Part shown: positions 38,397 through 58,417 of the stretch, in pieces | Layout: every line of letters starts with the position of its first letter | Position numbering within the stretch: position 1 is the first letter of the stretch | Assembly (NCBI GenBank): GCA_964629685.1 | Contig: CAZVTT010000001.1 | Location: forward strand, 513,319 to 577,318 | Length of the DNA: 64,000 bases | Reading direction: 5' to 3' | Origin: an uncultured Gammaproteobacteria bacterium | GTDB lineage: Bacteria > Patescibacteriota > Microgenomatia > UBA10105 > UBA927 | The notes under the pieces: generated by a model | What the model was told of the DNA's origin: nothing | Seen by the model: only the letters and a program-made list of their open reading frames with translations | Database searches by the model: none | Position numbers and translations under genes: made by a program

Positions 38397-38399
38397 GGG

Positions 38400-39362
38400 T
38401 TATTTCTTAAAATTCCAGTATGGTTGCAGATTATTTTCTAAATTATCAAGCGTCATGCGGGCATTTTCGATAATCGGTATTCGGGATTCGGATGTTGGTT
38501 CCTGATAACTATGTGACTCGTCATTTACACCTTGAAGAAAACTATAAGCACAGGCTGGCAATGTATGCGTATTGTATCCGCCTTCTAACGTAGCAAAGAG
38601 CGGGACTCCGGTCCTGAATAGCTGCTGACCTATGAAATAATAACTATTCGTGGTGAGATGAAGAGTTAGCAGTGGGTCTGAATGGTGTCCGTCAAATCCA
38701 GCAGAAACGGCAATTACATCGGGTTTGAATTGTTCTACTATCGGCAATAGCCAGGTTATAGCAGTATGAAATACATCGTCGCCGCTTTCGGAAGGAAGGG
38801 GGATATTAACGGTATAACCCAGACCGTTTTCAGAACCGATATTGTCTACACTTCCACCTCCAGGATATGCATCTCCCTGATGGGTTGAGCAATACAGAAC
38901 CTGATTACTGGTGCTGAAATATGCTGCGGTTCCATCACCAAAATGGCCGTCAAAATCGATTATGGCTACTTTTTTATTTTGCTTAACAAGTTTTTCTACG
39001 GCCACGGCTATATTGTTAAAAAGGCAAAATCCCCGTCCATGTTTTGCGTGGGCATGGTGACCGGGGGGGCGAACGAGTGCAAATTGATGTTGTTGGGATG
39101 CAGTAATAGTTAAATTTACAGCAGCTACCGCTGCGGCAAAACTTCGTGGTGAGGTAACAGTATCGTTATCGAGTGGAATGCTTTTGGCTGCGCAGTCACG
39201 GACGAATGTTATGTAGTCTAAAGGATGCACCAGTGTTAAAGCTGTTTCCGTGAAGTCGACAGGATATTCCTGAAGTTGACCGAATGCTGTTAAACGGTTC
39301 TTATTTTCGGGATGGGTTCCGGTGTCATGTTCCAGAAAAATAGAGTTGAACAAAAAATCCAT
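38400..39362 (-). CDS. Histone-deacetylase-family (AcuC/HDAC-like) Zn-dependent deacetylase
   Basis: RPPGHHA, DFDGHFGDGT and GGY motifs of the arginase/deacetylase fold. Confidence 0.75.
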   Translation of the reverse strand: MDFLFNSIFLEHDTGTHPENKNRLTAFGQLQEYPVDFTETALTLVHPLDYITFVRDCAAKSIPLDNDTVTSPRSFAAAVAAVNLTITASQQHQFALVRPPGHHAHAKHGRGFCLFNNIAVAVEKLVKQNKKVAIIDFDGHFGDGTAAYFSTSNQVLYCSTHQGDAYPGGGSVDNIGSENGLGYTVNIPLPSESGDDVFHTAITWLLPIVEQFKPDVIAVSAGFDGHHSDPLLTLHLTTNSYYFIGQQLFRTGVPLFATLEGGYNTHTLPACAYSFLQGVNDESHSYQEPTSESRIPIIENARMTLDNLENNLQPYWNFKK

Positions 39363-47582: not shown

Positions 47583-48521
47583 ATGGACAAAGTACCAACT
47601 ACAATAGTAAGCGGGTTTTTGGGAAGCGGAAAAACAACTATCATTTCCGGACTTATAGATGAGTTGCAAAAACGAAATGAGCAGGTGGTTTATATTAAAA
47701 ATGAGATTGGCGACGAAAATGTAGATGCCAAACTCATGGAAGGCAAACACATCGCAACGAAGCAGTTACTAAATGGTTGTATTTGTTGTACGTTGACCGG
47801 TCCGTTTATTTCGGCAATCGAAGAAGTACTTACGTCCTTACGTCCGGACAGAATAGTTATTGAAGCGTCCGGTGTAGCTGATCCGTCGGCCTTGGCCCTT
47901 ATGGTTTCTGCGCAGCCGGGTTTACATAGGGATGGAGTGTTAACCATAATTGATGTCGTACATTTTGAAGGGTATAAGGACTTGAGTTTTGCCGCCAGAG
48001 AACAAGCGAAGTTTACGGATTTAATTATTTTTAACAAAGTCGAACTTGCTGATACCGCACGCAAGGTTGCAGTCGTTGGATATGTACGGGAACTTAACGA
48101 TTTCGCACCAATCGTGGAAGCTCCCCAAGGAAAAATTGCCGCAAGCGTAGTCTTCGGTATTTCCAAAATGGAGCTTGATTCATTACTTTTAAAGAAGCAG
48201 CAACAGGAAGAGCAGGGTGAACCCCGACATCACCATCTAGAGGAGGATATGATCCAGACGGTGAAATTTGAAACGGACCTAATTATGGATCAGGAGAAAC
48301 TTTCGGAAATATTGGAAAATTTTCCGCTAAACGTATTTAGGGTTAAAGGGTATATTCGTACAGCAACAAATTCTTTACTGGTAAATCGGGTCGGAAAGCG
48401 CTTGGATTATTTACCCTATTCCGAATTACTTCATTCTTCCGTTCTTATTTGTATCGGTTTTAATATTTCGGAAAATAAAGATGAGTTATTCGAAAAGTTA
48501 GCCGGTAGTCTTAGTACATGA
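47583..48521 (+). CDS. COG0523 (CobW/ZigA/YeiR-type) G3E metallochaperone GTPase with His-rich segment
   Basis: GFLGSGKTT P-loop, CICCT (CxCC) metal motif, HHHLEED His stretch, CobW_C-like C-terminus. Confidence 0.75.
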   Translation: MDKVPTTIVSGFLGSGKTTIISGLIDELQKRNEQVVYIKNEIGDENVDAKLMEGKHIATKQLLNGCICCTLTGPFISAIEEVLTSLRPDRIVIEASGVADPSALALMVSAQPGLHRDGVLTIIDVVHFEGYKDLSFAAREQAKFTDLIIFNKVELADTARKVAVVGYVRELNDFAPIVEAPQGKIAASVVFGISKMELDSLLLKKQQQEEQGEPRHHHLEEDMIQTVKFETDLIMDQEKLSEILENFPLNVFRVKGYIRTATNSLLVNRVGKRLDYLPYSELLHSSVLICIGFNISENKDELFEKLAGSLST

Positions 48522-48582: not shown

Positions 48583-48756
48583 TTAAGCTACTTTGTCGTA
48601 GTCAGCTTTTGATACAAACTTCGTCAATGGTCGACCATCGGAAGTTACTCCTCGGACGGCATAACGCACTTGACCTCGGTTTTTGTATTCTTTTCGTTCA
48701 GTAACTTCGGCCTCGACGGTTGTGCGGGTTTTGACATCATAAAATTTCATCTTCAT
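48583..48756 (-). CDS. Small basic protein (57 aa), hypothetical; absent from the ORF track
   Basis: Strong SD AAGGAGGTGA 5 nt upstream of the ATG; MKMKFYDVKTRTTVEAEVTERKEYKNRGQVRYAVRGVTSDGRPLTKFVSKADYDKVA; own sigma70-like promoter. Confidence 0.45.
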   Translation of the reverse strand: MKMKFYDVKTRTTVEAEVTERKEYKNRGQVRYAVRGVTSDGRPLTKFVSKADYDKVA

Positions 48757-48938: not shown

Positions 48939-49601
48939 TTAGAAGGTAATAACTTTTTCCACAGGGAGATTATGAAAGGTAATACCCGGGAGGGGTTCAG
49001 AGCAAACAATTGTCATCTCTCGTTTTTTCGAAATTTTAAGTCCGTAGTAATCTGGGTAGGCAGCATATTGACAGTAAACCGAAAACTGTTCACCGTCAGA
49101 AACGCCTATATTTAAAGCCTGTACCGTTTGAGTGTGTTGCCGCAACTGATAAATAGTTTTTTCTAATGCCGTGTAGAGTGGGGCATCTGCAGTATTTTGA
49201 AGAAACAAGGACCGGATTTTTTGTGCACCAATCTGTCCGGAAAGCGGAGTAGAAAATTTTACGCCTTTTAGTAATCCGTTAAATACGAAAGCGTAAGAAT
49301 TGGCGGTGTACGGCTGATTATATTCCAAGTGACCTTTATCTTTCGCAAATGACGCACTTCTGGCATGTACTAAAAACATATTTGTAGCGGGAAAATCGGA
49401 AAACGCCGGTGTATCTTGCCAAACGGGTAACAATGAGGTGTAGGTTTTCCATGAATTATCGGCTCGTGAACAGATACCCCAGCCGTCACCTTGCCAGTCA
49501 CCGTCTAAGGCGCGACTGTTTTTTGCCATTTCCGCAAAACTTTTGAGTATTGTAGCCGGCTGAATAGGCTTGGTTGATTTTACTAACAAGAATCGACACA
49601 T
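48939..49601 (-). CDS. Class II glutamine amidotransferase (Ntn hydrolase, YafJ/EgtC-like) domain protein, last gene of the LysW operon
   Basis: N-terminal Met-Cys (Cys1 nucleophile), ...DGWG..., HARSAS (HxRxAT-type) motif. Confidence 0.6.
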   Translation of the reverse strand: MCRFLLVKSTKPIQPATILKSFAEMAKNSRALDGDWQGDGWGICSRADNSWKTYTSLLPVWQDTPAFSDFPATNMFLVHARSASFAKDKGHLEYNQPYTANSYAFVFNGLLKGVKFSTPLSGQIGAQKIRSLFLQNTADAPLYTALEKTIYQLRQHTQTVQALNIGVSDGEQFSVYCQYAAYPDYYGLKISKKREMTIVCSEPLPGITFHNLPVEKVITF

Positions 49602-49612
49602 AGGTGTATACC

Positions 49613-50770
49613 TTATACCAGTATTCGCTTAAGTGTGGCTACGGCACTATCAATTTCCCGTTTTTGAATTAAAAACGGCGGTAAAAATCTAATGACGGAG
49701 GCCCCGGCGGGAATCGCCAATATTTGTTCCTTCTGCATTTTTTTTAATATTTCATCCCGTTGTGACGTGAGTTCAATTCCTATCATTAATCCGACTCCGC
49801 GGACATCCGATATCAGCGGCGATGAAATCATTTTTAAAGCGTGAATAAAATATGTTCCCATTGTAACTACGTGATCTAATAGTGGTTCGTTAAGTAGTTC
49901 AAGCGTAGCTATGATTCCGGCACAGGCCAGCGGATTCCCTCCGAATGTGGACGTATGGATATGGCGGGGAATTTGTTCACCTATGGGAGTGGTTACTAAT
50001 GTAGCACCGACGGGAATTCCGCCTGCTAATCCTTTTCCTAGACACAGAATATCGGGATTAACATTATGTTGTTGTATTGCCAAAAATGTTCCGGTTCTGC
50101 CGCAGCCTGTTTGTATTTCGTCAATTATTAAAAGAATTCCGTTTTTGGTACAAAGCTCGCGAACGGCTTGCAAGTATTCCGCCGGAGGAGGATAAATTCC
50201 GCCTTCTCCCTGGACCGGTTCTAAAATAACCGCTGCTGTTTCCGGAGATATTGTTTCTGATAAAGACGTAATGTTTCCAAAGGGTATTCGATCAAATTGC
50301 CACAGCAAAGGCGTAAACGGCGCGGAATATTTCTCGCCACTCGTTGCGGAGAGTGCTCCTAAAGTTTTCCCGTGATAGCCGTGTTCGGCAACGATAAAAC
50401 GTTTTTTACCGCTGGCTAATACGGCAAATTTGAGTGCTGCTTCTATGGCTTCAGCGCCTGAATTGGAAAAATACACTTGCTTTAGTCCGGATCCGCAGCG
50501 TTTAATGAGCATTTTAGCTGCATTTGCCCGACTATCGTTTCCAAAGCTGCCGTGGAGGGTTACCAGTCGTGATAACTGCTGAGTAAGCGCCCGCATCAAG
50601 TCAGGATGAGAATGTCCAAGTATGGAAACGCCATAATTGCTCATTAAATCAAGATAACGGGTACCTTCAGTATCATAGAGATACATACCTTCACCCCGGA
50701 TAAAGCTGACGCCCCTGTTTACATAGACCGGTACGGTAAAATGTTGTTGAATAGGTAAAAATTCATCCAT
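49613..50770 (-). CDS. lysJ: Class III aminotransferase, acetylornithine/LysW-aminoadipate-semialdehyde aminotransferase (ArgD/LysJ)
   Basis: 385 aa; PLP fold-type I with the ArgD-family pattern (GHSHP, DEIQTGCGRTG, lysine in LGKGLAGG). Confidence 0.7.
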   Translation of the reverse strand: MDEFLPIQQHFTVPVYVNRGVSFIRGEGMYLYDTEGTRYLDLMSNYGVSILGHSHPDLMRALTQQLSRLVTLHGSFGNDSRANAAKMLIKRCGSGLKQVYFSNSGAEAIEAALKFAVLASGKKRFIVAEHGYHGKTLGALSATSGEKYSAPFTPLLWQFDRIPFGNITSLSETISPETAAVILEPVQGEGGIYPPPAEYLQAVRELCTKNGILLIIDEIQTGCGRTGTFLAIQQHNVNPDILCLGKGLAGGIPVGATLVTTPIGEQIPRHIHTSTFGGNPLACAGIIATLELLNEPLLDHVVTMGTYFIHALKMISSPLISDVRGVGLMIGIELTSQRDEILKKMQKEQILAIPAGASVIRFLPPFLIQKREIDSAVATLKRILV

Positions 50771-50772
50771 AG

Positions 50773-51573
50773 TTAAGAAATTACGGTACCGGCTCCCTTG
50801 AGGGCTTGTTCAATCGGATGCGGTACGCGTCCATCTCCCCAATAAATAGTTTTAACTCCCATCTCTAAGGCTTTTTTTGCACCTAATATTTTCTTTTTCA
50901 TACGTCCCTGAGCAAATGTCAGATAATTATCCAAATCTTCTTTGGGAATATGCGGAATAATGCTGGTAGGATCCGAAACGTCCCGGAGTAGCCCCGGGGC
51001 TTCAAAGAGATAAACAACGGATTCTACGTGCATGTGCCCTGCCATAACTGCTACCGCCCAGTCATTGTCCGTATTTACAATTGCACAGGCTGGCGTAATT
51101 GCGGGAGGTGCAATTACCGGTGTGTAGCCTCCGGAAATAAGTAACTGAATCAGTTCCGTATTTACGTGTTCCACTCTCCCTGTAAGGTTTCCCGTAAGTA
51201 ATTTCGTTTTGGTACCGTCCTGAATTAATACATCCGGTTTATGTTTTGCTTCCCACAATCGTCCGTCAACACCGCAGAGGCCTACAGCATTTACGGTATG
51301 AGCTTGCAGTTTCGCCACGATCGTTTTATTTACAAGTCCGGCGTAGACCATTAAAAATATATCCAATGCCTGTTTATCGGTATATACACTGCTTATTCCT
51401 GAAGGAGAGGTGATTGTTCTGGTGGGGGCCTGTAACTTTACTGCAATTTCATCCCGGATTGCCCCTGCACCATGTACCAGTATCAGGGGTTCTTTCTTTA
51501 CCAGTTCGGCCACATCTTCCGCGATGTAGTCCCAATTAATGTGTATTCCGCCTCCTGCTTTAATTATAATCAT
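50773..51573 (-). CDS. lysZ: Amino-acid kinase family, [LysW]-aminoadipate / acetylglutamate kinase (LysZ/ArgB)
   Basis: 266 aa; IIKAGG N-terminus, VHGAG, AAK fold. Confidence 0.7.
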   Translation of the reverse strand: MIIIKAGGGIHINWDYIAEDVAELVKKEPLILVHGAGAIRDEIAVKLQAPTRTITSPSGISSVYTDKQALDIFLMVYAGLVNKTIVAKLQAHTVNAVGLCGVDGRLWEAKHKPDVLIQDGTKTKLLTGNLTGRVEHVNTELIQLLISGGYTPVIAPPAITPACAIVNTDNDWAVAVMAGHMHVESVVYLFEAPGLLRDVSDPTSIIPHIPKEDLDNYLTFAQGRMKKKILGAKKALEMGVKTIYWGDGRVPHPIEQALKGAGTVIS

Positions 51574-52589
51574 AGATGTATTGCTGCAATCACTGCATCT
51601 GTAAATTCACGTGTTCCCACGGTTCCGTTTAAATCCTGAGTAAGTATTTCTGACTTAATTGTATCTATCAATGCTTTTCTGATGGCGTCTGCAATTTTTT
51701 GTTGTTTAAGATAGTCCAGCAGTAAACACCCTGCCAGAATGGCAGCGGTCGGATTGGCAATATTTAAACCGGTATACTTTGGAGCAGAACCATGAACAGG
51801 TTCAAAGAGCGCAAATTTTTGCCCGATATTCGCCGAAGCCGCGACACCTAGTCCTCCGACTAAACCAGCCGCTTCGTCGGAAAGGATATCTCCGAACATG
51901 TTTGTGGTTACAAGTACATCGAATACTTCAGGTTTACGAACAAGTTGCAGTGCACAGGCATCAACGAGCATATCTTCAAACAGAATATCCGGATACTGTT
52001 CCGCTACTGCTCGGGCTTCTGAAAGGAAGAGACCATCACTTAACCGTAAGACGTTGGCTTTATGTATTGCTGTTACTTTTTTCCTCCCTAATAACCTGGC
52101 AGTCTCAAATGCGTACGTTACGATCCGGCTACTGGCTGTTTTGGTAATTATTCGTTCTGCCGAGTATCCATCGGGAATTTCATGTTCTACACCCGTATAC
52201 AGGTCTTCTGTATTTTCCCGTACCAGGAGGATATCAACGTTTCTCCTGGATTCAGGAATGGGGAGAGACCGGAATGGACGCAGATTTGCAAACAGATCCA
52301 ACTCTTTGCGGATGCGGACAATGGGACTAAAATATCCCGCGATGTTTGGTGGAGAAGTAACGGCACCAAATAATATCGCATCGGCTTTTTTACAGGTATC
52401 AATGGTTGATTCCGGGAGGGGGGATCCGTATTTCTGATAGGCAGCATACCCGGCTTCCGCTTCAATTATATCGTGAGAAAATTTAACTGCCCGGAAAACC
52501 CGCAGCACCTCCCTGATAACTTCCGGACCAATACCGTCTCCACCGATAATACAAAGCAGCGGGATATTGCTAAGTTTTGTTTTGATCAT
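51570..52589 (-). CDS. Isocitrate/isopropylmalate dehydrogenase family, probable homoisocitrate dehydrogenase
   Basis: 339 aa; IGGDGIGPEV N-terminus, NLFGDILSDEAA signature. Confidence 0.7.
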   Translation of the reverse strand: MIKTKLSNIPLLCIIGGDGIGPEVIREVLRVFRAVKFSHDIIEAEAGYAAYQKYGSPLPESTIDTCKKADAILFGAVTSPPNIAGYFSPIVRIRKELDLFANLRPFRSLPIPESRRNVDILLVRENTEDLYTGVEHEIPDGYSAERIITKTASSRIVTYAFETARLLGRKKVTAIHKANVLRLSDGLFLSEARAVAEQYPDILFEDMLVDACALQLVRKPEVFDVLVTTNMFGDILSDEAAGLVGGLGVAASANIGQKFALFEPVHGSAPKYTGLNIANPTAAILAGCLLLDYLKQQKIADAIRKALIDTIKSEILTQDLNGTVGTREFTDAVIAAIHL

Positions 52590-52596
52590 AGTGCGT

Positions 52597-53088
52597 TTAT
52601 GAAAATAATATTCCGATGGAATCTAACCCGTATTTCTGAATATGGGAAATAATACCGCCCTCTTCATGCAGCTTAAGCATAATAGTCGGCATAGAAGCAG
52701 CAATCGTTTTCTTTTTAGTGCTATTTTTAATTTTTTGAACGTCGAATAGGAGCTCAAGTTTATCGTGCGCTGAGATGCCTGAAGTATCAGCAACTACGGC
52801 CAGTAAACCCTGGTTTAAGCAATTGCGGTAAAATATTCTGGCGAACGACGGTGCGATTACCGCAGTGATACCGGAGTAGGCAAGTGCAGTTACTGCCGTT
52901 TCCCGTGAAGAGCCGCACCCAAAGTTTTTTCCTCCAATAACGAAGTCTCCGGGCGTAACATTTTTTGAAAATTCCGGACAATGTTCGATGAATGCAATTT
53001 TGGCTAATTCCTTGGGATCAGTCGTTATATTAAACCTGCCAGGTGTAATCAGATCAGTATTAATGTTATCCCCAAATATCCAATTCAT
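52597..53088 (-). CDS. 3-isopropylmalate/homoaconitate dehydratase small subunit (archaeal-type LeuD, 163 aa)
   Basis: NIDTDLITPGRF, GKNFGCGSSRE motifs; short LeuD-like form typical of HACN small subunits. Confidence 0.75.
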   Translation of the reverse strand: MNWIFGDNINTDLITPGRFNITTDPKELAKIAFIEHCPEFSKNVTPGDFVIGGKNFGCGSSRETAVTALAYSGITAVIAPSFARIFYRNCLNQGLLAVVADTSGISAHDKLELLFDVQKIKNSTKKKTIAASMPTIMLKLHEEGGIISHIQKYGLDSIGILFS

Positions 53089-53092
53089 AGTA

Positions 53093-54352
53093 TTAATTCA
53101 GAAAATGCCGCGGGTCAGTAATATATCCGTTTATAGCTGTTGCCGCTGCCGTAGCAGGGCTGGCAAGGTAGATGAATGCTTTGGCACTCCCCATCCTGCC
53201 GGTAAAGTTTCTGTTTGAGGTGGAAACACACACTTCGTTATCGAACAGAACTCCGCCATGTCTGCCCAGGCATGGTCCGCATCCCGGCGTCGTCAGAATG
53301 GCGCCGATTTTTGTAAAGAATTCTACGTATCCTTTTTTCAGAGCTTGCATGTAGACGAGTTTTGAAGCCGGTGTGATGATTACCCGGGTATCTCCTGCTA
53401 ACTTCTGCCCTTGCCACATAGCATATACCACGTCTAAATCTTCTATCCGACAATTCGTACATGATCCGATAAATACCTGATCCACATGAATCCGGCGTTT
53501 TTCTACAGCTCTTACTGTGGTGACCTTGTCGATATCGGGTGGTTCCGCAATAAGTGGTTCCAGTGAGTCAACGGTATATGACAATACATCCGCATAGGCG
53601 GCATTTTTGTCACTGGAGAGTTCTTGTGCGTCAAATGCGAAAGGTCGGTTATTTTGGTTCAGATAGTGTCTTGTTTGATCGTCAGGTGCCACAATTGCCG
53701 CTTTTGCTCCCATTTCCGCGGACATATTGGTTAACGTTAATCTTGCCGGAACCGAAAAAGAATTTACGGTATCGCCGCCATATTCCAATACGCGATAGTT
53801 TCCGCCTTCCGGTCCTAATTTTTGTGCTACCATCAACACAACATCTTTCGAAAATACTCCCGGAGCTAACGTTCCGTTAATATTTATCCTGATTGTTGCC
53901 GGAACTTTAAACCAGGCTTTACCGCTAGCCATGGCAATGGCCGCGTCCGTAGAACCGACACCAATGGTGAGTGCACCTAATCCTCCCCCTGTAGGGGTAT
54001 GAGAGTCTGCTCCTAAAACTAAAAATCCTGGATTAATGTACCGTTCACTTAAAAGCTGATGACACACGCCGTCAACGGTAATGGGAATTCCTTGTTCTTT
54101 TGCAAATGCCCGAATTTTTGCCTGTAAACCAGCCATTTGTACGTTCGGTGCCGGAAATGCATGATCGAACGGAATGAATATTTTATCTTTATTCCAGACT
54201 TTTTTGGCAATTTGATAAAAAGGTTCAATAGCCCAAGCGCAAGTCGTGTCATGAGCCATTACCAAATCGAGGTCTGCCACGACAAAGTCACCGGCGTAAA
54301 CTTTCTTACCGGTATGTTTGGAGAATATTTTTTCGGCGATGGTTTGCTTCAT
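53093..54352 (-). CDS. 3-isopropylmalate/homoaconitate dehydratase large subunit (LeuC-like aconitase family)
   Basis: 419 aa; aconitase Fe-S cysteines (CHQ..., GSCTN, GCGPC). Confidence 0.8.
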   Translation of the reverse strand: MKQTIAEKIFSKHTGKKVYAGDFVVADLDLVMAHDTTCAWAIEPFYQIAKKVWNKDKIFIPFDHAFPAPNVQMAGLQAKIRAFAKEQGIPITVDGVCHQLLSERYINPGFLVLGADSHTPTGGGLGALTIGVGSTDAAIAMASGKAWFKVPATIRININGTLAPGVFSKDVVLMVAQKLGPEGGNYRVLEYGGDTVNSFSVPARLTLTNMSAEMGAKAAIVAPDDQTRHYLNQNNRPFAFDAQELSSDKNAAYADVLSYTVDSLEPLIAEPPDIDKVTTVRAVEKRRIHVDQVFIGSCTNCRIEDLDVVYAMWQGQKLAGDTRVIITPASKLVYMQALKKGYVEFFTKIGAILTTPGCGPCLGRHGGVLFDNEVCVSTSNRNFTGRMGSAKAFIYLASPATAAATAINGYITDPRHFLN

Positions 54353-54353
54353 A

Positions 54354-55592
54354 TTACGGTAGGTGTTCTAAACGTTGTTCTAAAAATTGTGGTTGGGAAA
54401 CTATAGGAGGTATATTATGACGCGACACCACTTCCGATAGCAGTGCGTCGGGTGTATAGAGTCTGTTAATCTTTTCGGTTTGACTTTTAAATTCCTGTGC
54501 GATTACTTTAGCCTGCCCAGGGTCTACATCATAATATTTTACTTCCCGCAGGTAGTAATAAATGAGATTCCAACCGGATAGTGGACCGAGTAACAATTCA
54601 TGCTTGGTAATGCCAAAATTAGACAGATCATGTGCTTCATATACACTGGTATCATTTAAAACTGCTTTTTGGTGTACGCCGGCAGTATGAGTTCTGTTTG
54701 TAAGTGATACCGGTTCCATGGCCGGAACATGTAAGTTCAGAATAGAACCCATTAATACGTTTATGGGGTAACAGAGTAACAGATTGAACGTTTTGCAATA
54801 ATCAGGATCCTCGTGGAACAAGTTAAAGAGTAATCCGGTAAGTGAAGTAATTCCTGATCGTTCGGCGAGTCCCCAAATAGAGGTATCTATATACGATGCT
54901 CCGGATAATACTGCCGTTACAGAATTTATGAGTGCGTAACCACGGTCGTTATGGAAATGACATTCAATGTCATGATTCGGATATCGTGTTGCGAGTGCGG
55001 TAACCCGTTCAGTTACCTGTCTTGGTGTAGCCGTTCCAACGGTATCCGGCATTCCGAATGTCTGTACGTAGTCCTGCGCCATGTCATAGACGCGAAACAC
55101 ATGGTCAATTGGTGTACGGAAAAAATCTTCTACGGAGAATCTTATATAGAGTTTGGGATTATTTTCCCGGATTTTTTTTAAGAGCTGTTGGGTTTTGGCC
55201 AAAACTTCAGTAAAAGAAAGGCCATGACTATTCTGTTGGGCCCGTTTATGAATTCCAATGTATATGTTTAAACCGTCAAAACCTGCTGCTAATGCCTGTT
55301 CTATATCCCGCTCATCACATCGGACGTGTGCGAGTAACGTTACATGATCGCGCTGGATAGTACGGATATATTGCTTTAGCGCTAAAAAATCTTTTCCTTC
55401 CGCTTTGCCCACGATGGGGGAGAATAACTCGAGGTGCCGAACGCCAAGTTGGATAAGTCCGTTTACCAATGATTTTTTATCTTCAAGCGTAAAACGGTAT
55501 TTTTGGGAATCGAAAAGTAACGGTGATTGTTGACCATCCCGAAGTGTAGTATCTATAACTCCTTTAAATCTAGTAGTAAATTTCTGTGGCAT
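54354..55592 (-). CDS. Homocitrate synthase / 2-isopropylmalate synthase family (short form lacking the LeuA regulatory domain)
   Basis: 412 aa; DTTLRDGQQ TIM-barrel N-terminus, HxH metal motif (HFHND). Confidence 0.7.
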   Translation of the reverse strand: MPQKFTTRFKGVIDTTLRDGQQSPLLFDSQKYRFTLEDKKSLVNGLIQLGVRHLELFSPIVGKAEGKDFLALKQYIRTIQRDHVTLLAHVRCDERDIEQALAAGFDGLNIYIGIHKRAQQNSHGLSFTEVLAKTQQLLKKIRENNPKLYIRFSVEDFFRTPIDHVFRVYDMAQDYVQTFGMPDTVGTATPRQVTERVTALATRYPNHDIECHFHNDRGYALINSVTAVLSGASYIDTSIWGLAERSGITSLTGLLFNLFHEDPDYCKTFNLLLCYPINVLMGSILNLHVPAMEPVSLTNRTHTAGVHQKAVLNDTSVYEAHDLSNFGITKHELLLGPLSGWNLIYYYLREVKYYDVDPGQAKVIAQEFKSQTEKINRLYTPDALLSEVVSRHNIPPIVSQPQFLEQRLEHLP

Positions 55593-55593
55593 A

Positions 55594-56631
55594 TTATACC
55601 GGGTGTAGTCCCGGAAATGTGAGTCCTGTTTGTTCCGGAAAGCCGCACATTAAATTCATTGCTTGTACTGCCTGACCGGCTGTGCCTTTTACTAAATTAT
55701 CTATGGCCGCAATAATGACTAAACGTTGCATTTTTGAATCAAGTTCAAAACCTATATCACAAAAATTAGTACCAGCCAGAATTTTTGGTTCCGGATAGCG
55801 GTAGATACCCTGTTGTTCTTTGACTATTCTGATAAACGGTTCTTTTCCGTAATATTCGCGGTATGCTTTCCAAATATCTTTTTCCGTAACACCGGATTTG
55901 GGAACTGCATGAATGGTGACCAGTAGTCCGCGTACCATGTCCAAAGCAGTAGCTGAAATACCTACGGCAAAATTATCCGGTAACTGTAATTCCTGACGAA
56001 TTTCAGCCGTATGTCTGTGACCGGTTGGCATATATGAGCGTACTGAACCGGATCGTTCGGGATGATGAGATGCAAGCGAAAAATGCATTCCACCTTGTGA
56101 ACTGCTCATTTTAGCGTCAATAATTACCGAATTCTCCAGTAAGTTGTGCTGTATTAAGGGATATAACGATAAGATTGATACCGTAGCTTCACACCCCCCA
56201 CAGGAAACGTATTTAGCGTTTTTTATTTGTTCCCGATGCAGTTCGGCTATACCGTAGACAAATTTGGGAAGAAGGTCCGGTGCTGTATGTGGTTCGTGAT
56301 ACCACGAAGTAAAAATATCAGCATTATGTAAACGAAAATCTGCCCCTAAATCTATAATCATTCCGGCTTTTTTTTGCAGTTCCGGCATAATATGCATAGA
56401 TTGTCCGTTGGGGAGCGCCACAAAGAGCATATCGCATGGTGCCAATTTATCGGGATGAATAAAATTAAGCTGGGTGATTTTTCGCAGGTTCGGATGAACA
56501 CTCGATAGCGGTTTGCCGGCGAACTGTCTGGATGTAACTTCTGCAATGGTAACTTCGGGGTGTTGGATAAGTAAGCGGATTATTTCCCCGCCTGCGTAAC
56601 CGGAACCCCCAAGTATGGAAACGGTTTTCAT
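55594..56631 (-). CDS. lysY: N-acetyl-gamma-glutamyl-phosphate / [LysW]-aminoadipyl-phosphate reductase (ArgC/LysY)
   Basis: MKTVSILGGSGYAGGE NAD(P)-binding N-terminus; catalytic Cys in SCGGCEAT. Confidence 0.8.
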   Translation of the reverse strand: MKTVSILGGSGYAGGEIIRLLIQHPEVTIAEVTSRQFAGKPLSSVHPNLRKITQLNFIHPDKLAPCDMLFVALPNGQSMHIMPELQKKAGMIIDLGADFRLHNADIFTSWYHEPHTAPDLLPKFVYGIAELHREQIKNAKYVSCGGCEATVSILSLYPLIQHNLLENSVIIDAKMSSSQGGMHFSLASHHPERSGSVRSYMPTGHRHTAEIRQELQLPDNFAVGISATALDMVRGLLVTIHAVPKSGVTEKDIWKAYREYYGKEPFIRIVKEQQGIYRYPEPKILAGTNFCDIGFELDSKMQRLVIIAAIDNLVKGTAGQAVQAMNLMCGFPEQTGLTFPGLHPV

Positions 56632-56640
56632 ATAAATTTT

Positions 56641-57483
56641 TTATTTGGCCTGAGTAATACAGTAATCTACAATCGCACCTGAAATGCTGACTCCGGTAGG
56701 GGCTTCCGAATTTTTAAATTCCATGGTGTGATTTATTTCATTAATACTTAATCCCTTATCCGTTTCAAATACATCCATTGCCAAAATACCGCCGCCCACG
56801 GCTCGGGATGCTTTGCTGCAAATTTCGGAAAGCTCTTTCGTTACGGGACAATTACTGGCTACACCACCTCGGGCTGTATTGGTAATCCAATGTTCCGAAT
56901 CCCGGTATATGGCACAAATTGTTTTTCCGTTAATGACAAATGCACGGATATCTCTACCGGGTTTGCGGATATAAGCCTGCAGGTAATAGGCTTTCTGTTG
57001 TGGAGATCCGAGCGTGTCTTTGTGTTCTATTAGCGCTTCAAGGGCTTCCCGATCGTTTACTTTGGCGAGCATTCTACCCCATGATCCCAGAGCTGGTTTT
57101 AACACAATGGGAAATCCTCCCATGCGTTCTATTGCTGTAATGGCTTCTTCCAGGGTGAATACCATGGCAAAATCAGGCGTCAGGACGTTATGTTTGCGCA
57201 ATACAAGTGAGGTTACGAATTTGTCTTCACAGACGGTGGCCACAGATGAAGGGTTAATGACCGGAATCCCGAGAGATTCAAAATATCTGATGGCATAATC
57301 ACCTTTAACCGTAGATACTGACCGTTCAAGTGCAACATGAATTCCCGTAACCGGATAACTAGGGTCAAAAATCATAGTGCGGATATCCATTAACTTCACG
57401 GATACTCCGCGCTGTTTTGCCGCGTCGAGAATTAATTTTTCATCCCCACGGATAGTGGAATGGAGAAGACCGATGGTCGTCAT
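56641..57483 (-). CDS. lysX: RimK-family ATP-grasp ligase, alpha-aminoadipate/glutamate--LysW ligase (LysX/ArgX)
   Basis: ATP-grasp pattern (PIVLKPALGSWGR...); start placed at MTTIGLL just after the lysW stop (track ORF starts 4 codons earlier). Confidence 0.7.
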   Translation of the reverse strand: MTTIGLLHSTIRGDEKLILDAAKQRGVSVKLMDIRTMIFDPSYPVTGIHVALERSVSTVKGDYAIRYFESLGIPVINPSSVATVCEDKFVTSLVLRKHNVLTPDFAMVFTLEEAITAIERMGGFPIVLKPALGSWGRMLAKVNDREALEALIEHKDTLGSPQQKAYYLQAYIRKPGRDIRAFVINGKTICAIYRDSEHWITNTARGGVASNCPVTKELSEICSKASRAVGGGILAMDVFETDKGLSINEINHTMEFKNSEAPTGVSISGAIVDYCITQAK

Positions 57484-57487
57484 ATTG

Positions 57488-57661
57488 TTATTCACCCCAA
57501 TCTTCTTCTATAGCCGGTGCCTGTGAAAGGACAGCGGATCCGCCGGTGATACCGGATATTACCAAGCGTGTTTGACATTCAGCACAGCTGATAATTTCCG
57601 ATACTTCAACATTGGCAGCTAATGCCACTTCCCCGTCACAGATAGGACAATTACTTTTCAT
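57488..57661 (-). CDS. lysW: Amino-group carrier protein LysW (57 aa); absent from the ORF track
   Basis: MKSNCPICDGEV...SCAECQTRL... zinc-ribbon CxxC...CxxC and C-terminal EDWGE motif diagnostic of LysW/ArgW; lies directly upstream of lysX. Confidence 0.7.
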   Translation of the reverse strand: MKSNCPICDGEVALAANVEVSEIISCAECQTRLVISGITGGSAVLSQAPAIEEDWGE

Positions 57662-57669
57662 ATGCAGGG

Positions 57670-57742
57670 ATTATTTCCGATAGACACCAGGAAGTCAAAA
57701 AAAACTAATTAATTGACAAAAAATAAATAAAAGTGTTAAAAT
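57670..57742. promoter_or_regulatory. Back-to-back divergent sigma70-like promoters predicting leaderless transcripts
   Basis: Minus strand: TTGACT (57693-57698), 17-nt spacer, AATAAT (57670-57675), ATG 9 nt later. Plus strand: TTGACA (57713-57718), 18-nt spacer, TGtTAAAAT (57734-57742), ATG at 57749. No SD before either ATG. Confidence 0.35.
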
Positions 57743-57748
57743 ATTAAC

Positions 57749-58417
57749 ATGAAGTCAATCACACAGGCTACTGAAGACATTATTCATGAGTCACCGTTTT
57801 TAGAAGAAGTGATTCGTGAAGATATTGCGAATTTGTCGGGAATTGCCCGGAAAATTCACACTGAAGTGGAAAATCGTACCATGAAAGATGTTACGGTGGC
57901 TTCGGTAATTATGGCTTTAAAGCGTTTAACCGTCCGTGACGGAGTGCATAGTCATAGATTAATGAAGGCGTTTTCTGCTTCTCCTGAGTTGATTGTCCGG
58001 TCTAATCTATTTGAGATAACCGTGGAAAATTCGCCGACACTGATAGAAAAACAGCAAAAACTGCTTGGTAAAGCCAGTAAGGGGCATAGCAATTTTGCCA
58101 CTATTACGCACGGTGTATTTGAAACGACAATTATTGGTAATAGATCCGTGCGGGAGTACGTGTTGAACTTGTATGAAACTGAAAGAATTATCTCAAGAAT
58201 AGATAAGCTCTCGTCAATTACCATTAAATTCCCCAGTGATATTGTGGAACAGCCCGGCGTATATTACACCGTTTTAAAAACATTAGCCTGGGCAGGTCTT
58301 AGTATCGCGGAAGTGGTATCTACCTATTCGGAGTTAACAATTGTGTTGCCCGAGGAAGACGTTGAGCGTGCATTTACGTTAATTAAACAGCTATTTTCAG
58401 GAAAATCAGGTAAGTAG
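57749..58417 (+). CDS. Tandem ACT-like regulatory domain protein (hypothetical)
   Basis: 222 aa; C-terminal segment ...PGVYYTVLKTLAWAGLSIAEVVSTYSELTIVLPEEDVERAFTLIKQLF has a classic ACT beta-alpha-beta-beta-alpha-beta pattern; an N-terminal half repeats it. Confidence 0.35.
   Translation: MKSITQATEDIIHESPFLEEVIREDIANLSGIARKIHTEVENRTMKDVTVASVIMALKRLTVRDGVHSHRLMKAFSASPELIVRSNLFEITVENSPTLIEKQQKLLGKASKGHSNFATITHGVFETTIIGNRSVREYVLNLYETERIISRIDKLSSITIKFPSDIVEQPGVYYTVLKTLAWAGLSIAEVVSTYSELTIVLPEEDVERAFTLIKQLFSGKSGK

What the first reader, a model, noticed from the sequence alone, without database searches (positions are those of the whole stretch)
48939..57661. Complete LysW amino-group-carrier operon with alpha-aminoadipate front-end enzymes in a compact bacterial genome
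Ten co-directional, abutting genes sit at 48939-57661 on the minus strand. In order they are lysW, a RimK-type LysX ligase, an ArgC/LysY reductase, homocitrate synthase, LeuC-like and short LeuD-like dehydratase subunits, an IDH/IPMDH-family dehydrogenase, an ArgB/LysZ kinase, an ArgD/LysJ aminotransferase and an Ntn hydrolase. This matches the Thermus/archaeal LysW-mediated alpha-aminoadipate lysine pathway. The alternative is a bifunctional lysine/ornithine system of the Sulfolobus or Thermococcus type. Such operons are patchily distributed in Bacteria, so finding a whole one in a tightly packed genome is notable. The homocitrate synthase is the short form without the LeuA allosteric domain. 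The dehydratase small subunit is the 163-aa archaeal type.
Basis: partly seen in the sequence, partly recalled or inferred. Interest (0 to 1): 0.7.

Follow-up and report, generated by a model that had tools for sequence, protein, structure and literature searches.

The report
LysW lysine operon with new release enzyme
The ten genes are a real carrier-protein (LysW) lysine-synthesis operon in a tiny-genome bacterium, but the usual last enzyme (LysK) is absent and an unannotated cysteine hydrolase family appears to do its job, here and in thousands of uncultured microbes.

Summary
Ten abutting minus-strand genes at 48939-57661 encode LysW, LysX, LysY, homocitrate synthase, HacA, HacB, homoisocitrate dehydrogenase, LysZ, LysJ and a 220-aa Cys-Ntn hydrolase. 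Profile and PDB hits place them with the Thermus lysine enzymes, not with LeuABCD or ArgBCD.

In a pattern-selected sample of LysW loci from metagenomes, clusters carry either M20 (19) or this Ntn gene (10), never both. LysW ending in Gln instead of Glu occurs only with Ntn-type clusters (17/71 versus 0/19). The family keeps the glutaminase catalytic residues but has an invariant Gly where other class II glutaminases have the Asp that, as I recall, binds the free alpha-amino group.

Best reading: the Ntn enzyme releases lysine from LysW-gamma-lysine, and deamidates Gln-ended carriers. A conserved divergent tandem-ACT protein (57749-58417) also belongs to this cluster type. I found no published description. 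The function is inferred, not shown.

The parts
57488..57661 (-). lysW: 57-aa amino-group carrier protein. CxxC...CxxC zinc ribbon, acidic (pI 4.05), C-terminal EDWGE with Glu57 as the attachment site.
   Evidence: Pfam Zn_ribbon_LysW 34.5 bits (cutoff 27), NCBIfam LysW models 54 and 39 bits. Best PDB hits are LysW chains 5k2m_E and 3wwl_A, aligned through to the EDWGE end. pI.
56641..57495 (-). lysX: ATP-grasp ligase that joins the alpha-amino group of alpha-aminoadipate to the gamma-carboxyl of LysW Glu57. Carries the GSWGR motif that recognises EDWGE.
   Evidence: TIGR02144 LysX_arch 303 bits (cutoff 276). LysX_preATP_grasp + RimK domains. PDB 3vpd 278 and 1uc8 253 bits, against 3vpb 141. 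GSWGR is visible in the translation; the motif's role is taken from PMC10433800.
55594..56631 (-). lysY: NADPH-dependent reductase of LysW-aminoadipyl phosphate (ArgC family).
   Evidence: TIGR01850 388 bits (cutoff 234). Semialdehyde dehydrogenase domains. The model does not separate LysY from ArgC, so the assignment rests on context.
54354..55592 (-). Homocitrate synthase, short form (HMGL-like + HCS_D2, no LeuA regulatory domain).
   Evidence: Best NCBIfam model is TIGR02146 homocitrate synthase, 199 bits, below its 414 cutoff. Best PDB hits are S. pombe and T. thermophilus HCS (170 and 160 bits), against IPMS 87. The residues aligned to TtHCS Arg12, His72, Arg133-Phe-Ser135, Thr166 and His195/197 are conserved (residue roles recalled from the literature).
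53093..54352 (-). Homoaconitase large subunit (HacA / LeuC-like).
   Evidence: NF001614 518 bits (cutoff 385) and TIGR01343 hacA_fam 503 bits (cutoff 386).
52597..53088 (-). Homoaconitase small subunit (HacB), 163-aa archaeal type.
   Evidence: TIGR02087 LEUD_arch 164 bits (cutoff 109). HacB models 136-138 bits.
51570..52589 (-). Homoisocitrate dehydrogenase.
   Evidence: Best PDB hit is T. thermophilus HICDH 1x0l/3asj at 308 bits, ahead of ICDH 281 and IPMDH 240. TIGR02088 scores 384.5 bits, below its 409.8 cutoff.
50773..51573 (-). lysZ: [LysW]-aminoadipate kinase.
   Evidence: NF010659 [LysW]-aminoadipate kinase 294 bits (cutoff 223). PDB LysZ 3u6u/3wwm 220 bits against NAGK 68 or less. In an NJ tree the LysZ of Ntn-type clusters form their own clade.
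49613..50770 (-). lysJ: class III aminotransferase that converts LysW-aminoadipate semialdehyde to LysW-gamma-lysine.
   Evidence: Aminotran_3 353 bits. ArgD subfamily 398 bits (cutoff 410); LysJ_Th_th 357 bits, below its strict 700 cutoff. The assignment rests on context.
48939..49601 (-). Cys-Ntn hydrolase with a class II glutaminase fold (starts Met-Cys2). Proposed [LysW]-gamma-lysine hydrolase, a non-homologous replacement of LysK. In relatives it is also proposed to deamidate Gln-ended LysW.
57662..57748 (.). 87-bp divergent control region with two back-to-back sigma-70-like promoter matches. In each, the -10 box ends 6 nt before the ATG (lysW on the minus strand, the ACT gene on the plus strand), which suggests near-leaderless transcripts.
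   Evidence: + strand TTGACA-18-TAAAAT at 57713-57742, 11/12 with TG; - strand TTGACT-17-AATAAT at 57698-57670, 10/12. Sequence. These are consensus matches only, and the region as a whole is not enriched over shuffles.
57749..58417 (+). Conserved divergent gene of 222 aa: an N-terminal five-helix domain plus tandem ACT domains like the regulatory subunit of aspartate kinase. Probable lysine sensor for this cluster type, acting either on transcription or as an allosteric partner.
   Evidence: Weak ACT_7 hit. AF2 pLDDT 84.5. Best Foldseek match is the T. thermophilus aspartate kinase regulatory subunit 2zho, TM 0.74 on the target. Present next to lysW in 43 of 81 Ntn-type genome loci and in the window, in 3/8 Ntn-type metagenome loci, and in 0/11 M20-type metagenome loci.

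Best explanation
The region is a lysine-biosynthesis operon of a Microgenomates-like (CPR) bacterium. It uses the alpha-aminoadipate route with the carrier protein LysW.

Steps supported by homology:
1. Homocitrate synthase, homoaconitase (HacA/HacB) and homoisocitrate dehydrogenase turn 2-oxoglutarate plus acetyl-CoA into 2-oxoadipate.
2. An aminotransferase not encoded in the cluster makes alpha-aminoadipate.
3. LysX ligates it to the gamma-carboxyl of LysW Glu57.
4. LysZ phosphorylates the carrier-bound intermediate, LysY reduces it and LysJ transaminates it, giving LysW-gamma-lysine.

Inferred step: the tenth protein, a stand-alone Cys-Ntn hydrolase with the class II glutaminase fold, attacks the gamma-glutamyl amide bond with Cys2. 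This frees lysine and regenerates LysW, which is the job done elsewhere by the unrelated M20 metallohydrolase LysK.

In relatives whose lysW encodes a terminal Gln, the same active site would first deamidate the carrier to Glu. The divergently transcribed tandem-ACT protein is probably the lysine-responsive regulator of this cluster type.
For: Pathway identity:
- Curated models above cutoff for LysX, LysZ, LysY/ArgC, HacA and HacB.
- Best solved relatives are Thermus LysX, LysZ, HICDH and HCS and the LysW chains.
- EDWGE tail on LysW and GSWGR motif in LysX.
- In related loci a lysyl-tRNA synthetase gene follows the cluster, class I in 19 loci and class II in 5.

Ntn as the release enzyme:
1. 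The 6-gene core W-X-Y-Z-J-Ntn equals the carrier, the four known steps and one extra gene in LysK's slot. Ntn lies directly after LysJ in 71 of 75 loci with upstream DNA and inside the cluster in 73 of 75, across several phyla.
2. A second, more divergent subfamily sits between LysY and LysZ (W-X-Y-Ntn-Z-J), so the linkage survives rearrangement.
3. Among 80 LysW loci sampled by the C-terminal DNA pattern, 19 carry M20, 10 carry Ntn and none carries both. Among loci that hold LysY, LysZ and LysJ the table is 0/8 against 15/20, Fisher p = 4e-4. An M20 profile finds nothing in the window and only one generic DapE-like gene in 81 Ntn-type loci.
4. LysW ends in Gln in 14/61 genome and 3/10 metagenome Ntn-type clusters, and in 0/19 M20-type clusters (p = 0.018 pooled). 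Only an enzyme acting at the gamma position of the last residue makes such carriers usable.
6. Active site: Cys2, Arg81 (GlmS Arg73), Asn108-Gly109 (oxyanion hole) and Gly125 are conserved in 34-35 of 35 sequences from both subfamilies. Gly125 sits where GlmS has Asp123, the residue that as I recall binds the free alpha-amino group of glutamine. This fits a Glu whose amino group is in a peptide bond (residue roles from memory).
7. The family is basic (median pI 8.9) and LysW is acidic (pI 4.05).
8. LysZ of Ntn-type and LysK-type clusters form two clean clades.
Against: - No biochemical or genetic data exist. The function rests on gene context, mutual exclusion and active-site logic.
- Absence of LysK was shown for clusters, for 20-kb flanks and for this 64-kb window, not for whole genomes. 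In Thermus lysK lies outside the main cluster (from memory).
- One locus (L024) has a generic M20 gene next to a Gln-ended lysW as well as Ntn.
- Two family members (L078, L081) have no lys genes nearby.
- Counts are not phylogenetically independent, and the p values for the Gln terminus are modest.
- No alpha-aminoadipate aminotransferase is in the window, so the completeness of the pathway is unproven.
- The HCS and LysJ scores lie below the curated equivalog cutoffs.
- The LysY NJ tree does not separate the two cluster types cleanly.
Confidence: 0.72

Rival explanations
1. The Ntn enzyme only matures or repairs the carrier, by deamidating Gln-ended or amidated LysW. Lysine release is done by an M20 LysK encoded elsewhere in the genome.
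For: Gln-ended LysW occurs only with Ntn. L024 has a Gln-ended LysW, an adjacent M20 gene and Ntn. lysK can lie outside the main cluster in Thermus (from memory). Whole genomes could not be searched.
Against: About three quarters of Ntn-type clusters, including this window, encode Glu-ended LysW, which needs no deamidase, yet they keep the gene in tight, often overlapping operon position. M20 is found in 15 of 20 Ntn-less clusters that hold LysY, LysZ and LysJ, and in 0 of 8 with Ntn. The L024 M20 scores as a generic DapE/ArgE protein, with the LysK model at 72 bits against a cutoff of 363.
Confidence: 0.12
2. The carrier module is bifunctional, as in Sulfolobus or Thermococcus, and makes ornithine/arginine as well as lysine. 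In the many relatives that lack front-end genes in the cluster it may make mainly ornithine.
For: Only 10 of 59 loci with at least 6 kb of upstream DNA carry HacA/HacB/HICDH in the cluster, and 36 of 59 carry an HCS-like gene. Thermus LysZ, LysY, LysJ and LysK are promiscuous toward the glutamate series (PMC12998189). There is a single LysX, and the Thermococcus bifunctional LysX is also a good match at 212 bits.
Against: In this window the three 2-oxoadipate-forming enzymes are inside the operon. LysX is closest to the aminoadipate-specific Thermus enzyme and far from ArgX (278 against 141 bits). LysZ passes the [LysW]-aminoadipate kinase model but not the bifunctional models. Lysyl-tRNA synthetase genes flank related clusters. 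No argF, argG or argH is in the window.
Confidence: 0.15
3. The tenth gene is an ordinary glutamine amidotransferase subunit or a passenger gene unrelated to the carrier pathway.
For: Databases name family members 'class II glutamine amidotransferase'. The fold and catalytic residues are those of glutaminases.
Against: It is a stand-alone 220-aa domain with no synthase partner. No step of the pathway needs ammonia transfer. Synteny holds in 73/75 loci over several phyla and in two gene orders. The alpha-amino-binding Asp of true glutaminases is replaced by an invariant Gly.
Confidence: 0.04

Closest known systems
Thermus thermophilus LysW (AmCP)-mediated alpha-aminoadipate lysine pathway
   Same: Same carrier (zinc ribbon, EDWGE tail). 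Same ligase, kinase, reductase and aminotransferase families. Same homocitrate synthase, homoaconitase and homoisocitrate dehydrogenase front end. The Thermus proteins are the best solved relatives of LysX, LysZ and HICDH.
   Different: There is no M20 LysK; a Cys-Ntn hydrolase occupies the last position. All ten genes form one operon. A divergent tandem-ACT protein accompanies the cluster. Relatives encode a Gln-ended carrier. The host is a roughly 0.95-Mb CPR-type genome rather than a thermophile.
LysK ([LysW]-lysine hydrolase, M20 / ArgE-DapE family)
   Same: Proposed to catalyse the same reaction, hydrolysis of LysW-gamma-lysine. It occupies the same place in the gene cluster and is mutually exclusive with it.
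   Different: Unrelated fold and chemistry: a binuclear metallopeptidase against an N-terminal cysteine nucleophile. There is no sequence or structural similarity, so this would be a non-homologous replacement. A metallohydrolase is not expected to make a Gln-ended carrier usable (inference).
EgtC (ergothioneine-pathway gamma-glutamyl amidohydrolase, PDB 4zfj/4zfl)
   Different: Only 17-18% identity and 34 bits against the EgtC model cutoff of 219. There is no ergothioneine gene context. The predicted substrate is the C-terminal residue of a protein. An invariant Gly replaces the Asp that GlmS and PDB 3mdn have at this position; EgtC itself was not aligned there.
Sulfolobus / Thermococcus bifunctional LysW systems and haloarchaeal ArgW
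   Same: Carrier-based chemistry and homologous X, Z, Y and J enzymes. Dual lysine/ornithine use is not excluded here.
   Different: Those systems use M20 LysK/ArgE. In this window the LysX and LysZ scores favour the aminoadipate-specific forms, and the front-end enzymes are in the operon.
Aspartate kinase regulatory (beta) subunit, tandem ACT domains
   Same: The C-terminal 140 residues of the divergent gene product superpose on it (2zho, TM 0.74 on the target). Those domains bind lysine or threonine in aspartate kinases.
   Different: It is free-standing with an extra N-terminal helical domain. No aspartate kinase is nearby. The only amino-acid-kinase-fold protein in the cluster is LysZ.

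Membership tests
LysW/AmCP-mediated alpha-aminoadipate lysine pathway | Small zinc-ribbon carrier protein ending in EDWGE with a C-terminal Glu | tested here: met
   Pfam Zn_ribbon_LysW above cutoff. Aligns end to end with the LysW chains 5k2m_E and 3wwl_A. Ends ...EEDWGE followed by a stop codon.
LysW/AmCP-mediated alpha-aminoadipate lysine pathway | LysX ATP-grasp ligase with the GSWGR motif | tested here: met
   TIGR02144 303 bits against a cutoff of 276. GSWGR is present. PDB LysX 278 bits.
LysW/AmCP-mediated alpha-aminoadipate lysine pathway | LysZ kinase and LysY reductase acting on the carrier-bound intermediate | tested here: met
   NF010659 [LysW]-aminoadipate kinase 294 bits against 223. 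TIGR01850 388 bits against 234, although that model does not separate LysY from ArgC. PDB LysZ 220 bits against NAGK 68.
LysW/AmCP-mediated alpha-aminoadipate lysine pathway | LysJ class III aminotransferase | tested here: inconclusive
   Clear class III aminotransferase of the ArgD/LysJ group (398 bits against a cutoff of 410; LysJ model 357 against 700). Its specificity is inferred from operon position.
LysW/AmCP-mediated alpha-aminoadipate lysine pathway | LysK, an M20 (ArgE/DapE-type) hydrolase that releases lysine | tested here: not met
   No M20 protein in the cluster or anywhere in the 64-kb window, by tblastn/phmmer with E. coli ArgE and by an iterated M20 profile. The rest of the genome is not testable.
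LysW/AmCP-mediated alpha-aminoadipate lysine pathway | Front end: homocitrate synthase, homoaconitase, homoisocitrate dehydrogenase | tested here: met
   HCS-like protein with the best hits to solved HCS and conserved distal-carboxylate residues. HacA and HacB above cutoffs. HICDH is the best PDB hit for the dehydrogenase. The HCS score is below its equivalog cutoff.
LysW/AmCP-mediated alpha-aminoadipate lysine pathway | Alpha-aminoadipate aminotransferase (LysN type) | not testable with these tools
   None in the window; the only other aminotransferase is a sugar aminotransferase at 7947-9161. The remaining ~890 kb of the genome could not be read.
Class II glutamine amidotransferase / Cys-Ntn hydrolase fold | N-terminal Cys nucleophile after Met removal, Asn-Gly oxyanion hole, Arg for the alpha-carboxylate, four-layer Ntn fold | tested here: met
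Class II glutamine amidotransferase / Cys-Ntn hydrolase fold | Asp that binds the free alpha-amino group of glutamine (GlmS Asp123) | tested here: not met
   Two independent alignments (HMMER to 3mdn, hhalign to E. coli GlmS) place the invariant Gly125 at this position: TD[ST]E becomes IGAQ.
EgtC (ergothioneine biosynthesis) | Score above the TIGR03442 equivalog cutoff and egtABDE gene context | tested here: not met
   34 bits against a cutoff of 219. The neighbours are lys genes in 73/75 loci.
Aspartate kinase regulatory subunit (for the divergent ACT gene) | Tandem ACT fold paired with an aspartate kinase catalytic subunit | tested here: inconclusive
   The fold matches, but no aspartate kinase is in the window or in related loci. 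Some sources mislabel family members 'aspartate kinase'.

The most novel reading that the evidence does not exclude
A whole lineage of amino-group-carrier pathways has swapped the metallohydrolase LysK for a cysteine Ntn gamma-glutamyl amidase. It accounts for roughly a third of the classifiable LysW clusters in the metagenome sample and is found in CPR/Microgenomates, Aminicenantes, Dehalococcoidia and abundant marine MAGs. Because this enzyme works at the gamma position of the carrier's last residue, these organisms can encode the carrier with a terminal Gln, as an inactive amide 'pro-carrier' that the same enzyme activates. The conserved free-standing tandem-ACT protein would be the lysine sensor of this lineage, possibly acting on LysZ as the beta subunit acts on aspartate kinase.
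Probability: 0.45. Interest if true: 0.8.

Novelty: new variant of a known kind. Interest (0 to 1): 0.72.

Why it matters
- It would fill a systematic gap. Pathway callers that look for LysK would score lysine (or ornithine) synthesis as incomplete in many uncultured lineages. Thousands of proteins now labelled 'hypothetical' or 'class II glutamine amidotransferase' would receive a function.
- It would be a clear case of non-homologous enzyme replacement inside a well-studied pathway.
- It predicts a new use of the glutaminase fold, hydrolysis at the C-terminal residue of a protein, and a genetically encoded Gln-ended carrier.
- CPR bacteria are usually described as unable to make amino acids. 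A ten-gene lysine operon kept in a genome of about 0.95 Mb suggests that lysine supply matters to these cells. One possibility is lysine-type peptidoglycan, since the alpha-aminoadipate route yields no diaminopimelate; this is speculation.

Tried and rejected
- **Organism identity.** The exact protein look-ups show only that the genes lie on a 953,690-bp NCBI contig with no name attached. The GTDB scan did not return the genome itself; the best hit was 55% identical. The closed Microgenomates genome Ch65 in PMC7143001 is a different organism (801,504 bp). Placement in Microgenomates near Roizmanbacteria rests on 57-77% identity of the pathway proteins (LysW, LysX, LysY, HCS, HacA, HacB, HICDH, LysZ, LysJ) to such MAGs. 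Several of those MAG records carry obviously wrong taxon labels, such as 'uncultured Gammaproteobacteria'.
- **RNA elements.** No tRNA and no Rfam family, including the lysine riboswitch, anywhere in the window.
- **EgtC orthology.** Rejected on score and gene context.
- **Glutamine amidotransferase reading.** Rejected: there is no partner domain and the alpha-amino-binding Asp is lost.
- **Secondary-metabolite AmCP cluster.** Considered and set aside, because the cluster holds only primary-pathway genes and sits next to lysyl-tRNA synthetase genes in relatives.
- **M20 detection.** A single-sequence search with E. coli ArgE was judged too weak, so I built an iterated profile from 20 M20 proteins found in the metagenome loci. 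It still finds nothing in the window.
- **Other.** The afdb50 fold library was unavailable. The 57-aa ORF downstream (48583-48756) is not conserved near other clusters.
- **Literature.** Eight full-text searches found no paper that links LysW with an Ntn or glutaminase-type enzyme, none on a Gln-ended LysW ('EDWGQ' has zero occurrences), and none on the aminoadipate pathway in CPR. The GapMind 2026 preprint on missing amino-acid enzymes does not list it. The library excludes most subscription journals, so prior description cannot be ruled out.

Full report
**1. Observation**

The ORF listing shows ten co-directional minus-strand ORFs at exactly the coordinates given. They are 57, 284, 345, 412, 419, 163, 339, 266, 385 and 220 aa long, from 57661 down to 48939. 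Spacings range from an 8-nt overlap (lysW/lysX) to an 11-nt gap. Base composition is even across the region (GC 0.42-0.46), so nothing suggests a recent insertion. No tRNA or Rfam element lies in the window, so there is no lysine riboswitch.

**2.

NCBIfam and Pfam results:

| Gene | Best model | Bits | Cutoff |
|---|---|---|---|
| LysX | TIGR02144 | 303 | 276 |
| LysZ | NF010659 [LysW]-aminoadipate kinase | 294 | 223 |
| LysY/ArgC | TIGR01850 | 388 | 234 |
| HacA | NF001614 | 518 | 385 |
| HacB | TIGR02087 | 164 | 109 |

- LysW passes the Pfam Zn_ribbon_LysW cutoff.
- The synthase hits homocitrate synthase best (TIGR02146, 199 bits, below its cutoff). Its domains are HMGL-like + HCS_D2 only, with no LeuA regulatory domain.
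- The dehydrogenase and the aminotransferase score just under their subfamily cutoffs.

The species and specificity labels for the LysX-family and LysZ PDB entries are from memory, because the entry names shown by the tool are generic.

- LysX is closest to Thermus LysX (278 and 253 bits), then the Thermococcus enzyme (212), and is far from glutamate-specific ArgX (141).
- LysZ scores 220 bits to Thermus LysZ and 68 or less to acetylglutamate kinases.
- The dehydrogenase scores 308 to Thermus homoisocitrate dehydrogenase, 281 to ICDH and 240 to IPMDH.
- The synthase scores 170 and 160 to S. pombe and Thermus HCS and 87 to IPMS. The residues aligned with Thermus HCS Arg12, His72, Arg133-Phe-Ser135, Thr166 and His195/197 are conserved. 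The roles of these residues in binding 2-oxoglutarate are recalled from the Thermus and S. pombe HCS structure papers.
- LysW aligns end to end with the Thermococcus and Thermus carriers and ends EEDWGE.
- LysX carries the GSWGR motif, which PMC10433800 describes as recognising EDWGE.

The lysine reading is therefore supported.

**3. What is missing**

The known pathway ends with LysK, an ArgE homologue (PMC12998189). No M20 protein is in the cluster or in the 64-kb window. This holds for tblastn and phmmer with E. coli ArgE and for an iterated M20 profile.

Annotating the rest of the window found no DAP-pathway gene, no arg gene and no LysN-type aminotransferase. The rest of the genome could not be read.

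**4. The tenth gene**

It has no Pfam hit and scores only 34 bits to EgtC, whose cutoff is 219. It has 559 homologues in the large protein collection, mostly from Microgenomates MAGs. They are named 'hypothetical' or 'class II glutamine amidotransferase'.

A profile of 26 members finds 134 clusters (at 50% identity) with E <= 1e-30 among 1.84 billion representatives. A more divergent subfamily has more than 3000 clusters at 90% identity.

**5. Gene context across genomes**

A scan of one genome per GTDB species with the family alignment returned 80 loci, and one more came from an Aminicenantales contig. I ran tblastn with the ten window proteins on all of them.

- Of 75 loci with at least 1.3 kb of upstream DNA, 71 have lysJ directly upstream of the Ntn gene on the same strand.
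- Two more (L046, L077) have the gene inside the cluster.
- Only L078 and L081 lack lys genes nearby, although their proteins carry the family motifs.

The taxa named in the records include Roizman-, Davies-, Levyi-, Gottesman-, Shapiro- and Pacebacteria, Aminicenantes and other Acidobacteriota, Dehalococcoidia and Fischerbacteria. Two MAGs are labelled archaeal, but binning is unverified.

Many loci hold only the six-gene core W-X-Y-Z-J-Ntn. That is the carrier, the four known carrier-dependent steps and one extra gene where LysK would be.

- Among 59 loci with at least 6 kb upstream, 56 have X, Y, Z and J, 36 have an HCS-like gene and 10 have the full front end as in this window.
- In Microgenomates a lysyl-tRNA synthetase gene often follows the cluster: class I fused to a B3/4 domain in 19 loci and class II in 5. 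This points to lysine as the product.

**6. Pattern-selected sample and mutual exclusion**

To avoid selecting on the Ntn gene, I scanned metagenome contigs for the DNA pattern that encodes A-P-x3-E-D-W-G-[E/Q]-stop. Seventy-nine of the 80 returned loci are real lysW genes. I classified them with the Ntn profile and the M20 profile.

- 19 clusters contain M20, 10 contain Ntn and none contains both.
- Restricting to loci that hold lysY, lysZ and lysJ gives M20 in 0 of 8 clusters with Ntn and in 15 of 20 without. Fisher p = 4e-4.
- Nine of the ten Ntn clusters use a second gene order, W-X-Y-Ntn-Z-J, with the divergent subfamily.
- That order was also seen for a distant family member (P0515, locus L206). 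It recurs on a 187-kb marine scaffold, where the Ntn gene overlaps lysZ by 4 nt and no M20 gene lies within 10 kb (L210).
- In the 81 genome loci the M20 profile hits only L024. That protein is a generic DapE/ArgE-type deacylase, and the LysK model scores 72 bits against a cutoff of 363.
- An NJ tree of LysZ splits cleanly into an Ntn-type clade (30 tips) and a clade holding all LysK-type and unclassified loci (26 tips). The LysY tree is less clean.

**7. Gln-ended carriers**

Among 61 lysW genes in the Ntn-type genome loci, 14 end EDWGQ-stop rather than EDWGE-stop. They are scattered over at least eight sequence groups, some next to Glu-ended close relatives. In the metagenome sample the Gln ending occurs in 3 of 10 Ntn clusters and in 0 of 19 M20 clusters.

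Four more Gln endings lie on short contigs. For three of them the LysW sequence or the neighbouring ACT gene matches Ntn-type lineages. Fisher p = 0.033 for the sample and 0.018 pooled. These counts are not phylogenetically independent.

LysX needs a gamma-carboxylate, so a gamma-amide cannot be ligated. These carriers therefore need an enzyme that hydrolyses the gamma-amide of the last residue, which is what a class II glutaminase-type active site does. Hydrolysis of LysW-gamma-lysine is the same reaction with lysine instead of ammonia as the leaving group. The string EDWGQ does not occur in the paper library.

**8. Active-site logic**

In 35 sequences from both subfamilies, Arg81, Asn108-Gly109 and Gly125 are invariant and Cys2 is present in 34 of 35. 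HMMER alignment to PDB 3mdn and hhalign to E. coli GlmS agree on the mapping:

- Arg81 corresponds to GlmS Arg73.
- Asn108-Gly109 corresponds to the Asn98-Gly99 oxyanion hole.
- Gly125 corresponds to Asp123.

From memory of the GlmS glutaminase-domain structure, Arg73 holds the alpha-carboxylate of the bound glutamine and Asp123 holds its alpha-amino group. The last residue of LysW has a free alpha-carboxylate, but its amino group is in a peptide bond to Gly. Keeping the Arg and losing the Asp fits such a substrate. This is inference.

The family is basic (median pI 8.9) and LysW is acidic (pI 4.05). That is in line with the charge complementarity reported for other LysW partners (from memory).

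**9. The divergent gene**

ORF 57749-58417 (222 aa) belongs to a family found head to head with lysW in 43 of the 81 Ntn-type genome loci and in the window. It occurs in 3 of 8 Ntn-type metagenome loci with upstream DNA, and in 0 of 11 M20-type loci (p = 0.06).

Its model (pLDDT 84.5) has a five-helix N-terminal domain and two ACT domains. The best structural matches are the regulatory subunits of aspartate kinases (2zho and others). Some databases mislabel family members 'aspartate kinase'.

It is most likely the amino-acid sensor of this cluster type. Whether it acts on DNA or on an enzyme is open; LysZ shares the amino-acid-kinase fold with aspartate kinase.

The 87-bp intergenic region has two promoter-like matches. 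Each -10 box ends 6 nt before the start codon. These are consensus matches only.

**10. Verdict**

The finding is real and the lysine interpretation holds. The notable part is not the presence of the pathway as such, because the same ten-gene operon recurs in related Microgenomates. It is that this operon represents a large, unannotated variant of the carrier pathway. A Cys-Ntn gamma-glutamyl amidase stands in for LysK, some carriers end in Gln, and a dedicated ACT protein accompanies the cluster.

I rate the pathway identity at about 0.95 and the LysK-replacement function at about 0.7. Nothing here is biochemical, and whole-genome absence of LysK was not testable. I found no prior description in the searchable literature, but that library is incomplete.

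Noticed in passing
window 57749-58417 (+): Conserved divergent gene encoding an N-terminal helical domain plus tandem ACT domains like the aspartate kinase regulatory subunit. It is found next to lysW only in Ntn-type clusters.
   Followed up: yes
loci L010, L022, L024, L025, L031, L050, L055, L062, L063, L065, L066, L068, L069, L075, L100, L158, L159: lysW genes that end EDWGQ-stop instead of EDWGE-stop. They were seen only in Ntn-type clusters. The window's own LysW ends in Glu.
   Followed up: yes
e.g. L044:12493-14793 and L045:10702-12153: Lysyl-tRNA synthetase genes lie directly downstream of the Ntn gene in many Microgenomates loci. They are class I fused to a B3/4 domain in 19 loci and class II in 5. 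This is not the case in the window, where a CobW-type GTPase gene (47583-48521) is the neighbour.
   Followed up: partly
L058:3830-8031 and L070:3555-6303: Between lysY and lysZ these loci carry other genes instead of a homocitrate synthase. L058 has a TPP enzyme, a PLP (threonine-synthase-like) enzyme with an N-terminal zinc ribbon, and an SHMT-like gene. L070 has the latter two. This may be a different front end or a different product for the carrier module.
   Followed up: no
L206:8828-11236: An 802-aa protein with fused aconitase large and small subunit domains follows a W-HCS-X-Y-Ntn-Z-J cluster, suggesting a single-chain homoaconitase.
   Followed up: no
L024:4502-5611: This is the only M20 gene near any Ntn-type cluster. 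It is a generic DapE/ArgE-type deacylase placed just upstream of a Gln-ended lysW.
   Followed up: partly
window 35712-39362 (-): An 894-aa Pat-like protein (acyl-CoA-synthetase-like domains plus GNAT acetyltransferase) lies next to a histone-deacetylase-family gene. Together they look like a lysine acetylation/deacetylation pair in a very small genome.
   Followed up: no
window 57662-57748: Both divergent promoter-like sites place the -10 hexamer 6 nt before the ATG of lysW and of the ACT gene. This suggests leaderless or near-leaderless mRNAs, and no Shine-Dalgarno sequence is evident.
   Followed up: partly
window 48583-48756 (-): A 57-aa basic ORF with a strong Shine-Dalgarno sequence (AAGGAGGTG) and a promoter-like site lies just downstream of the operon. 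It has no family hit and is not conserved near other clusters.
   Followed up: partly
window 58571-60778 (+): A 735-aa acidic protein rich in Glu, Thr, Val and Pro has no Pfam hit. It has a hydrophobic, Cys-rich C-terminal end and may be a surface or anchor protein.
   Followed up: no
window 1-64000: GC skew is positive in almost every 2-kb bin, and the cumulative skew rises steadily from 0 to 2.1, although genes lie on both strands. The window therefore sits within one replichore or has a strand bias. A published Microgenomates genome with extreme one-directional skew (Ch65) is a different organism.
   Followed up: partly
loci L007, L009, L010, L012 and others: Many TPA-assembled MAG records that carry typical Microgenomates-like clusters are titled 'uncultured Gammaproteobacteria', 'Eubacteriales' or 'Clostridia'. 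These record titles look unreliable as taxonomy.
   Followed up: no
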